Below, in pieces: positions 35,636-37,034 of a stretch of DNA of 64,000 nt. Position 1 is the stretch's first letter. Each line of letters opens with the position of its first letter. The notes beneath the pieces were generated by a model. The model did not search any database and was not told where the DNA came from. It worked only from the letters and a program-made list of their open reading frames with translations. This stretch comes from Paraspadella gotoi (taxonomy: Eukaryota > Animalia > Chaetognatha): positions 348,328-412,327 of the forward strand of contig CM119265.1 in NCBI GenBank assembly GCA_051294375.1, read 5' to 3'. The position numbers and the translations under genes are program-made.

Positions 35636-36675
35636 CCTGCCTCACAGTTCTTGGCGGAGTCGCCGAATTTGCGGTGGTAAAAACATATATCAACGCGCTT
35701 GGTCTTTTGCTGCTGATTTGACGGCGTTGTTGATGGTCTATCGGCGTTCGTTGGTCGTCGAAAAGTGTTGTTCGGTCGACGAGCTGTTTGGTTTTGTCGT
35801 GGGCGATTGACGGCGTTGACGTCGTCGTTGATCAGTGGATCCTCTTGCATGAGAGGCGTAACGGTCGGATTGACGTTGCTGATCGAATTTGTAGTTGCAT
35901 TGTGGAGAAGGCGGCCGTCGCGATCGAAATAGGCGTCGGCGAATTTCGCTGTGGTCTCGGCGTCGACGGTTTCCACTCGTTCAGCGAGGTTTCGCTGAAT
36001 CTCTGGAGGAAGCTCGCGCAGTAGCAGCTCCTTGAGGATGTCGTCCACTGACACTTTTCCAGCTTTTTCCTTCATGAACGCAAGAAGCTGGGAAGGACGA
36101 CGGCCATCTCGACGGGTGCCGTCGATGAGGGAGGCTGCCTGTTGTGAACGGGTGCGACCATACTCCTGGCGTAAGTAGGCGAGGAATTCGTTCCATTTGA
36201 GGTCCGTTGCCTCGCCGAAAAGGAAAGAATTGATTCGTGGATTGTAATCGACGGTGAATTTGTCCTCCAAGTGGGCGAACTTCTCTCTCGCTGAAGTCGT
36301 TCCTGCGCGGAGATATGCCGCTTCGACTCTCTGGATCCAGAGCTCGACGTTGTCCGCGTCGAAGTCTGGCAGCTTGGGTTTTTTTAATGACAAGCTCTGA
36401 AGAGATGCTGCCAGAGTAGATGCGAGGGTACGAACCAGTTCCGCCTGAGGATCGGGAGACGGCGCCGCGGCCATGTTGGCGGAGTTTGTCGGCGTCGACG
36501 GGAAGCTGAAGGATGGCTGTGTGGCGTCAGACGTCGGAGATCGCCTTCCGCGGCCGAAACCGATCGGGAGAGGAGGAGCGAGGCGATTGGCGTGGTCGTG
36601 TTGAGGCGCCGCGGCGTCGTCCGCGTTGCTTGGTTGTGCTACGCGAGCACGAGTTCCATTTGCTGGTCCGCTCAT
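35587..36675 (-). CDS. gag: Gag of copy G
   Basis: 362 aa; CFYHRKFGDSAKNCEAGC knuckle. Confidence 0.93.
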   Translation of the reverse strand: MSGPANGTRARVAQPSNADDAAAPQHDHANRLAPPLPIGFGRGRRSPTSDATQPSFSFPSTPTNSANMAAAPSPDPQAELVRTLASTLAASLQSLSLKKPKLPDFDADNVELWIQRVEAAYLRAGTTSAREKFAHLEDKFTVDYNPRINSFLFGEATDLKWNEFLAYLRQEYGRTRSQQAASLIDGTRRDGRRPSQLLAFMKEKAGKVSVDDILKELLLRELPPEIQRNLAERVETVDAETTAKFADAYFDRDGRLLHNATTNSISNVNPTVTPLMQEDPLINDDVNAVNRPRQNQTARRPNNTFRRPTNADRPSTTPSNQQQKTKRVDICFYHRKFGDSAKNCEAGCYRQQQENGRAGGRK

Positions 36676-37034
36676 CCGTCGAGCGTTGTAGAGGGTTTTG
36701 GGGAGAGAAAGGAGGGAGAGGGAAGTGGTGAGAGGTAGGCAAGAATTTGCAGCCTAATAAACACGAGCTTGCCTACCTGAGAAAAGGTTTTCATCCACTT
36801 GAAGGCATCCACTAGGTTTTCGATTGAATTTTCACTTGTTTTTATTTTTGTTGTTTTAGTGAGGCATTTAGAGGCATTTCGAGGCTTATTTTGATGTCGA
36901 AAATGTATCCCTAAGGCGGAGAGGCTAATTTTGTGTAGGAAAAGTTTCCCTAAGGCTTTAAGAAGGCTGAGAGCATAGTTTTGGTTCAGAAGGTTGGTTA
37001 AAATTCTTAGTTGGGCTCACCAAAGGGACAGAGA

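What the first reader, a model, noticed from the sequence alone, without database searches (positions are those of the whole stretch)
36671..36779. Conserved leader module: 5' splice site, hairpin, branchpoint and pyrimidine tract with no normal acceptor
All seven minus-strand copies with a leader have AG|GTARG (intron-start G at 10464, 17036, 23713, 36776, 43819, 49419, 56964). A stem-loop follows whose stem sequence differs between families while pairing is kept (perfect 11-bp arms in G: 36733-36743 / 36768-36778; loop often ATTARGC). Then comes a YTNAC branchpoint-like motif about 48-52 nt from the donor, then a pyrimidine tract. In C, D, G, H and I the next AG is the one inside the gag start ATG-AG, ~55-75 nt away; in B and J it is CGGAG. 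All are weak GAG acceptors. Hypotheses: (i) first-step-only spliceosomal cleavage or lariat formation, as in S. pombe TER1 processing; (ii) regulated splicing that removes the first gag ATG; (iii) a donor for a distant acceptor.
Basis: partly seen in the sequence, partly recalled or inferred. Interest (0 to 1): 0.8.

Follow-up and report, generated by a model that had tools for sequence, protein, structure and literature searches.

The report
Acceptor-less intron in retrotransposon leaders
Jumping genes that sit in telomere repeats keep, just before their first protein gene, a conserved intron-shaped signal with no normal end point, which likely lets the cell's splicing machine cut some of their RNAs without rejoining them, while hairpins would keep the rest whole for copying.

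Summary
The window is an array of CsRn1-like Ty3/gypsy LTR retrotransposons in (TTAGGG)n tracts. All 7 named donors sit between the primer-binding site and gag, with a branchpoint-like A at +48 to +52, a pyrimidine tract, and a first AG (always GAG) 41-72 nt away.

The same geometry occurs in 22 of 23 assessable metagenome relatives, four gag lineages in all. In those relatives the tract runs straight into C-ATG-T with no AG. The intron-side hairpin is confined to the window; most relatives have an exon-side hairpin instead. No conserved distant acceptor was found. Gag has a weak first ATG (29 of 29) and a strong second one (23 of 27).

No RNA data could test splicing. My best reading (0.36) is an intron that starts but rarely finishes, cutting a minority of transcripts as in TER1 or BDF2, and heritable because it is not excised. 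Close rivals are slow completion to the first AG, which deletes ATG1 (0.28), and a non-catalytic U1/U2AF decoy (0.22). I found no such module described in print.

The parts
37013..37022 (-). Primer-binding site of element G, 246 nt upstream of the donor
   Evidence: a TGG-start motif right after the LTR end in B, C, D, H, I, J
36771..36779 (-). G 5' splice site CAG|GTAGGC, first intron G at 36776
36733..36778 (-). G donor-covering hairpin: arms 36768-36778 and 36733-36743, loop motif ATTAGGC at 36752-36758
36728..36732 (-). G branchpoint-like CTCAC, A at 36729 (+48)
36700..36727 (-). G pyrimidine tract, followed by CAA rather than an AG
36671..36675 (-). G gag ATG1 in weak context, holding the first AG after the branchpoint (58 nt)
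36472..36474 (-). G gag ATG2 (codon 68, strong context) ahead of the conserved capsid core
35587..36675 (-). G gag ORF, 362 aa, with CX2HX9CX3C knuckle
32141..35641 (-). G pol frame (RT, RNase H and integrase by Pfam), overlapping the gag end in the -1 frame
10346..10467 (-). Module of element B (donor 10464, branch A 10414, ATG1 10350)
16917..17039 (-). Module of element C (donor 17036, branch A 16989, ATG1 16921)
23605..23716 (-). Module of element D (donor 23713, branch A 23665, ATG1 23609)
43719..43822 (-). Module of element H (donor 43819, branch A 43770, ATG1 43723)
49298..49422 (-). Module of element I (donor 49419, branch A 49369, ATG1 49302)
56823..56967 (-). Module of element J (donor 56964, branch A 56913, ATG1 56827)
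37035..37324 (-). (TTAGGG)n tract between G's PBS region and a partial LTR

Best explanation
The module is a conserved intron-shaped signal (donor, branchpoint-like motif, pyrimidine tract, no AG at the normal distance) in the leader of CsRn1-like LTR retrotransposons, and it likely works as an intron that starts but rarely finishes: the spliceosome would cut at the donor and form the branch, then release the pieces. Shown: the geometry, its conservation, the missing acceptor and the donor-adjacent stems. Inferred: the hairpins limit donor access so that most transcripts stay full-length; the transcripts that are engaged leave the replication pool as a capped 5' piece and a branched gag-pol piece; because the segment is not excised and rejoined, reverse transcription cannot erase it. 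The fate of the 3' piece (decay as a dosage brake, or gag mRNA) is open.
For: Conservation: 7 of 8 window elements with a leader (A lacks it) and 22 of 23 assessable metagenome loci, in four gag lineages. Spacing is fixed while the middle is divergent: donor to branch 48-52 nt in the window; donor to ATG1 89-97 nt in 20 of 22 loci. Branch plus tract follows 21 of 29 true donors against 2 of 41 other donor-like sites. No module has an AG within 39 nt after a scored branchpoint. In the 22 loci positions -9 to -3 before ATG are almost purely pyrimidine, -1 is C in 22 and +4 is T in 22, i.e. an acceptor-like Yn-N-CAT-GT without the terminal G (consensus recalled). The first AG after ATG1 is GAG in 21 of 29 against 11.2 expected from synonymous resampling, and in the 22 loci lies at a mean of 30 nt against 23 expected (my sums rows). 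Two different donor-adjacent stems evolved: intron-side in the window, exon-side in 19 of 22 loci against 0.84 expected. No copy with the segment cleanly excised was seen among the 8 window elements and the 23 assessable loci. Precedents: TER1 release after step 1 through a long branch-to-acceptor distance (PMC4299874) and BDF2 spliceosome-mediated decay (PMC3792478).
Against: No RNA evidence of any kind. Both precedents are fungal; in human distant-branchpoint introns step 2 scans to the first AG up to 400 nt away (PMC1431707), so 41-72 nt need not block completion in an animal. Cleavage destroys the genome-length RNA and the benefit is not shown; inefficient introns attract silencing in S. 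pombe (PMC13473130, abstract). The counts are not independent: 20 of the 22 loci come from one assembly, and 19 of the 20 that entered the tree fall in one clade. The AG-free run upstream of ATG1 is largely what composition gives (P below 0.05 in only 3 of 29), and the first YAG is not clearly displaced. Seven of 22 loci and J fail the strict branch-plus-tract filter. Elements A and L001 lack the module.
Confidence: 0.36

Rival explanations
1. A weak but complete distant-branchpoint intron: step 2 scans to the first AG, in or just after ATG1, deleting ATG1 and giving an mRNA for the short Gag that starts at ATG2. The intron hairpin (ATTARGC loop) would be a packaging signal that keeps spliced RNA out of particles, as in retroviruses.
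For: The first AG lies in ATG1 in C, D, G, H, I and 14-49 nt after it in the loci. ATG2 is in strong context in 23 of 27. Scanning to a far AG is normal in animals (PMC1431707). CsRn1 is listed as an animal-specific clade (PMC12801592). Plant Copia elements use splicing to make extra Gag (PMC5580714). ATTARGC is shared by both window clades.
Against: B and J have AGs before ATG1 (J has three). The AG is not at a fixed place and is mostly GAG. ATG1 is weak in 29 of 29 and also in module-less A and L001, and out-of-frame ATGs are depleted between ATG1 and ATG2 (3 observed, 24.4 expected), so leaky scanning already yields short Gag. ATTARGC is at the matching place in none of the 22 loci.
Confidence: 0.28
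2. A non-catalytic decoy: U1 at the donor and SF1/U2AF at the branch region bind without chemistry, so that an intronless RNA is handled as intron-bearing (read-through past the 5' LTR, export, or internal ribosome entry at the tract).
For: U1 binding to the major donor suppresses the 5' LTR poly(A) site in HIV-1 and foamy virus (PMC12789967). In G, D and H the stem covers the whole donor and ends next to the branch motif, which would hinder catalysis. The 10 loci with a PBS in the contig carry 3-10 upstream ATGs, which fits internal entry near the tract.
Against: A branch motif at a fixed distance from the donor is not needed for U1-only effects. In the window the tract is tied to the donor, not to ATG1 (branch to ATG1 46-86 nt). 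No AATAAA lies within 200 nt of the LTR 3' end in 9 of 9 LTR stretches scanned, though variant signals may exist.
Confidence: 0.22
3. A retrovirus-type major donor for a distant acceptor (a 3' ORF, the next element of the array, or a host exon), with the nearby branch and tract as a brake.
For: PBS-donor-gag order and structural attenuation of the donor resemble MLV (PMC2794156, abstract). Pyrimidine-rich CAG sites occur in the integrase tail of C and G.
Against: No acceptor at a matching place across the 7 elements; element I has none by the filter. No env-like Pfam family among 18 ORFs scanned. Pol overlaps gag in the -1 frame in B, G, H, I, J, so it needs no splicing.
Confidence: 0.07
4. 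Not a splicing signal: a packaging, dimerisation or translation element that resembles splice signals by chance.
For: Conserved stems and, in many loci, a GTGCAC palindrome just upstream of the donor; pyrimidine tracts before start codons occur in IRESs (recalled).
Against: AGGTG is invariant in 22 of 22 loci and AGGTA in 7 of 7 window copies inside divergent flanks; 21 of 29 against 2 of 41 in the control.
Confidence: 0.05

Closest known systems
Spliceosomal cleavage of fungal telomerase RNA (S. pombe TER1; PMC4299874, parts 1-2 of 5 read)
   Same: Donor and branch site with features that would uncouple step 1 from step 2, including a long branch-to-acceptor distance.
   Different: Here the substrate is a retrotransposon leader in a probable animal host, an ORF lies downstream, the donor is hairpin-attenuated, and no useful 5' product is shown. 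No Sm site was tested.
Spliceosome-mediated decay of yeast BDF2 mRNA (PMC3792478, passages)
   Same: A nominally intronless RNA with donor and branchpoint but no well-placed acceptor.
   Different: BDF2 is a single-copy gene under paralogue control; here the signal lies upstream of the ORF and is kept across mobile lineages.
Retroviral major splice donor, MLV and HIV-1 (PMC2794156 abstract; PMC12789967 passages)
   Same: Order PBS - donor - gag; the donor is flanked by RNA structure; long and short Gag isoforms exist in retroviruses.
   Different: No env and no conserved distant acceptor; a branchpoint and tract follow the donor within 50-70 nt.
Distant-branchpoint, AG-independent introns (PMC1431707, passages)
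   Same: Branch and tract followed by an AG-free zone.
   Different: The first AG here is mostly GAG, at no fixed place, inside coding sequence.
CsRn1 clade of Ty3/gypsy: CsRn1, PwRn1, AgCR (PMC2582038, passages)
   Same: CX2HX9CX3C gag knuckle, -1 gag-pol overlap, PR-RT-RH-IN order.
   Different: The paper's main text has no word beginning 'splic'; insertion into TTAGGG arrays and tRNA-like LTR units did not appear in my searches.

Membership tests
CsRn1-clade Ty3/gypsy LTR retrotransposon | Gag CX2HX9CX3C (CHCC) signature | tested here: met
   6 of 7 window gags (D lacks it in the frame read) and 97 of 104 homologues; definition from PMC2582038
CsRn1-clade Ty3/gypsy LTR retrotransposon | Pol order protease-RT-RNase H-integrase, LTRs, PPT | tested here: met
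   Pfam RT, RNase H, integrase in this order; protease hits below the cut-off in D and J; LTR pairs 94-97% alike in C, D, J
CsRn1-clade Ty3/gypsy LTR retrotransposon | tRNA-Trp primer-binding site | not tested
   A TGG-start PBS is present but no tRNA sequence was on hand; the paper's PBS alignment is an image supplement I did not see
CsRn1-clade Ty3/gypsy LTR retrotransposon | RT phylogeny groups with named CsRn1 members | not tested
   None of the 120 pol homologues listed bore a name
U2-type spliceosomal intron | GT donor matching the U1 consensus | tested here: met
   6-8 of 9 positions match in 29 of 29 (consensus recalled)
U2-type spliceosomal intron | Branchpoint plus pyrimidine tract | tested here: met
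   21 of 29 pass a strict filter against 2 of 41 controls; use of the A is not shown
U2-type spliceosomal intron | YAG acceptor within about 40 nt of the branchpoint | tested here: not met
   First AG at 41-72 nt in the window, all GAG; 39-64 nt in the 15 loci with a scored branchpoint
U2-type spliceosomal intron | Exon-exon junction in RNA | not testable with these tools
   No run on record as RNA holds the sequence
TER1/BDF2-type first-step spliceosomal cleavage | Free 5' exon and lariat intermediate accumulate, dependent on donor and branchpoint | not testable with these tools
   Needs RNA experiments
TER1/BDF2-type first-step spliceosomal cleavage | Sequence feature that slows step 2 | tested here: met
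   Long branch-to-AG distance and GAG bias; sufficiency in an animal spliceosome is doubtful
Retroviral major splice donor | Conserved downstream acceptor feeding env or accessory ORFs | tested here: not met

The most novel reading that the evidence does not exclude
These retrotransposons make their gag-pol mRNA by spliceosomal first-step cleavage: the long, ATG-laden leader is cut off and the 2'-5' branch, shielded by the adjacent hairpin, serves as a lariat cap 20-85 nt upstream of the gag start. The spliceosome would thus sort one transcript into genome (hairpin closed) or message (hairpin open). It fits the 3-10 upstream ATGs in long leaders and the ATG-poor scanning zone that begins near the branch, but B, C and J have no upstream ATG after the PBS, and translation of such an RNA is unexplained.
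Probability: 0.14. Interest if true: 0.92.

Novelty: new variant of a known kind. Interest (0 to 1): 0.62.

Why it matters
If step 1 happens here, it would be a natural, conserved case of first-step-only splicing on a retroelement RNA in a probable animal host, so far described for fungal telomerase RNA and yeast BDF2 in the papers I read. It would give a defined donor and branch nucleotide for the open question of why LTR elements depend on the debranching enzyme Dbr1 (mechanism unresolved per PMC12238851), although Ty1, Ty3 and HIV-1 are not shown to carry this module. It also shows a way for an RNA-copied element to keep an intron signal without losing it. Under the rival readings it is still an undescribed Gag-isoform switch or spliceosome decoy.

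Tried and rejected
RNA evidence: no RNA holder listed (1 of 3 runs holds the stretch and is only guessed to be RNA). Its contigs laid on 30000-37030 and 38450-50060 show no listed joint at the G, H or I donors; G's leader is covered by one contiguous contig and I's donor bin has no cover (tables were cut). X1 may be DNA, so this is no evidence either way. X2 and X3 gave only short matches or none.

No whole genome is held. No relatives in viral contigs with gag or pol alignments or in prokaryote genomes. An LTR-end/PBS pattern gave 7 loci, L029-L035, none with gag or pol similarity; dropped as chance. Rfam gave 1 sub-threshold miRNA match elsewhere and ARAGORN 0 genes.

Formal covariation test of the exon-side hairpin on the ungapped 22-row alignment was not passed: 63.6% of cells paired, covariation score reached by 84 of 500 shuffles; the stems lie in two registers there. 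Intron-side stems in the 22 loci beat shuffles only in L014 (1 of 100).

Rejected: a conserved upstream ORF or upstream ATG spliced in frame to gag; the locus donors being a misread PBS (the true PBS lies 578-1040 nt upstream in 10 loci); a telomere-template stretch in exon 1 (none in the 300 nt before 29 donors); L018's missing N-terminal extension as a spliced copy (its module is intact).

The host could not be named: homologues carried no names, and cluster membership and atlas look-ups returned nothing. No earlier notes on this genome or sequence.

Rows dropped: L008, L011, L017, L020, L022 (leader not in contig); A, L027, L028 from the tree (short match); C, L002, L015, L018, L024 from the ATG1-ATG2 count (frame break or atypical ATG2).

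Full report
Setting. The window is a head-to-tail array of LTR retrotransposons separated by (TTAGGG)n tracts. ORFs give RT, RNase H and integrase in Ty3/gypsy order. Gag carries CX2HX9CX3C in 6 of 7 copies and 97 of 104 homologues, the CsRn1 signature given in PMC2582038 (passages). Pol overlaps gag in the -1 frame in B, G, H, I, J. The assembly is noisy (N runs, frame breaks). The host is unknown; the clade is listed as animal-specific in PMC12801592 (passages).

Observation. All seven donors, branch-like motifs (+48 to +52), tracts and first AGs (GAG, 41-72 nt) are as stated. Each lies between a PBS and gag ATG1. G's 11-bp stem is highly significant (z -4.21); the other six windows are not by free folding, but donor-anchored helices are matched by 0-5 of 100 shuffles in five of them and 12 of 100 in C. 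C/D/G/H cover the donor itself; B/I/J start at +5 and show double changes between B and I (by eye). Element A (+ strand) has a PBS and gag start about 55 nt apart with no module.

Relatives. A 50-row gag alignment found 28 metagenome loci, 24 of them from one assembly. Five lack the leader in their contig. Of the other 23, 22 have an AG|GTG donor 82-129 nt before ATG1 (89-97 nt in 20), a divergent middle, and a pyrimidine tract that runs into C-ATG-T; L001 has no donor in the 160 nt before ATG1. A branch-like YTNAY with tract is scored in 15 of 22, 21-31 nt before the ATG, against 0 of 17 other donor-like sites; in the window 6 of 7 against 2 of 24. A gag-core tree of 33 rows places module-bearing elements in four groups: C/D/G/H, B/I/J, L002 and a 24-row clade (long branches meet, no root, so origin is not settled). 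L025 begins in a TTAGGG tract, so telomere-repeat insertion is shared. The intron-side stem is not conserved in these loci; instead 19 of 22 have a 5-6-bp hairpin ending 7-9 nt upstream of the donor (0.84 expected), with visible double changes, though the formal test on an ungapped alignment was not passed.

The missing acceptor. In the loci the ATG sits where an acceptor should be: pyrimidines to -3, a variable base, then C-ATG-T in 22 of 22, which is the recalled acceptor pattern without its terminal G. In the window the tract ends in CA plus a non-G base 21-31 nt after the branch, which is suggestive only. The first AG after ATG1 is GAG in 21 of 29 (11.2 expected) and in the loci later than expected (mean 30 against 23 nt, my sums), at no fixed place; the first YAG is not clearly displaced and the upstream AG-free run is mostly compositional. 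No distant acceptor is shared.

Gag starts. ATG1 is in weak context in 29 of 29 and the next in-frame ATG in strong context in 23 of 27 (Kozak rule recalled). Out-of-frame ATGs between them are depleted (3 against 24.4 in 24 elements) but not after ATG2 (71 against 63.9), so that stretch is probably scanned and two Gag forms are likely made by leaky scanning. Upstream, 10 loci with a PBS carry 3-10 ATGs; the window copies carry 0, 0, 1, 5, 3, 1, 0. Exon-1 ATGs are only mildly depleted in the loci (64 against 87) and the window's loops hold 1 against 7.1 expected, which cuts against internal entry for the window's own elements.

Mechanism. Shown: geometry, conservation, missing acceptor, stems, two-start gag. 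Inferred: spliceosome binding, attenuation by structure (precedent in MLV, PMC2794156, abstract), AG-independent step 1, and failure of step 2 (precedents PMC4299874, parts 1-2 of 5; PMC3792478, passages). I rank first-step cleavage (0.36) just above completion to the first AG (0.28) because the AG looks avoided rather than provided, B and J break the ATG1-removal rule, and leaky scanning already gives short Gag. The main objection is that animal spliceosomes scan to far AGs (PMC1431707, passages), and stalled introns invite silencing (PMC13473130, abstract). A non-catalytic decoy (0.22) rests on U1 suppression of LTR poly(A) sites (PMC12789967, passages). A review notes that branchpoints at a hairpin's closing pair can escape Dbr1 and that Dbr1's role for Ty1, Ty3 and HIV-1 is unexplained (PMC12238851, passages), which bears on the novel case. 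PMC5580714 (abstract and start) and PMC12471100 (passages; no splicing terms) were also seen.

Novelty. Ten full-text searches (listings seen) showed no such leader module in CsRn1 or other LTR elements and no TTAGGG-targeted CsRn1 lineage. The library lacks most subscription papers and repeat databases, and supplements were not read. Two unchecked notes from other genomes describe unremovable intron-like units in LINEs and fungal LTRs; they are parallels only. Verdict: real, conserved and unexplained by known annotation; a new variant of known spliceosome uses; mechanism untested.

Noticed in passing
window junctions 50056, 38214, 24934 (5') and 50881, 17903, 59195, 37331 (3'); L025:1-45: LTR ends abut TTAGGG tracts in one orientation, mostly with GGGT on both sides like a 4-bp target duplication: an apparently telomere-repeat-specific LTR retrotransposon lineage with several families in one array. 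Not found in searches.
   Followed up: partly
window minus strand near 57679, 51518, 50013, 38067, 24787, 18181, 17563, 11544, 11135; L003, L014, L019, L025 LTRs: Each LTR carries a tRNA-like unit with A- and B-box motifs, antisense to the element; ARAGORN calls none. Possibly a Pol III promoter, chromatin barrier or extra primer-pairing site.
   Followed up: partly
window 36996, 44004, 23931, 17239, 10509, 49462, 57007; same place in the loci: A conserved CAACCTTCTG-like motif lies about 25-90 nt after the PBS, also in module-less A; it may pair with another part of the primer tRNA (recalled resemblance to tRNA-Trp, not tested).
   Followed up: no
gag of all elements, e.g. window 36474-36675: Two-start gag: a weak first ATG adds a 60-100 residue extension, aromatic-rich at the tip in the locus clade, before a strong second ATG; 50 of 99 homologues show the long form with an internal Met.
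   Followed up: yes
L004-L027, about 7-14 nt upstream of the donor: A GTGCAC palindrome in many loci, able to pair either within the exon-side hairpin or with the donor, like a switch; the same hexamer is recalled as an HIV-1 dimerisation sequence.
   Followed up: partly
window 37023-37324 and 31410-32114: G's PBS is separated from its LTR by a telomeric tract, and about 700 nt in G's integrase tail are not covered by X1, which has a long loose end at 31389: assembly differences or rearrangements.
   Followed up: no
window 63-5200 (+ strand, element A): The only element in the opposite orientation; it interrupts B's 3' LTR and lacks the module.
   Followed up: partly
integrase tails, e.g. window 5522-5900, 44510-44900, 51828-52300: A long proline-rich tail ending in conserved FSRP..ENFS and RP.Y..VL-like motifs; a candidate telomere-targeting region.
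   Followed up: no
L018:1078-1090: Module intact, but ATG2 follows ATG1 after two codons; the extension is missing.
   Followed up: partly
window 57930-58780: A short GC-rich unit with an internal direct repeat between telomeric tracts, starting TGTAG and ending CCACA like the LTRs; perhaps a non-autonomous element.
   Followed up: no
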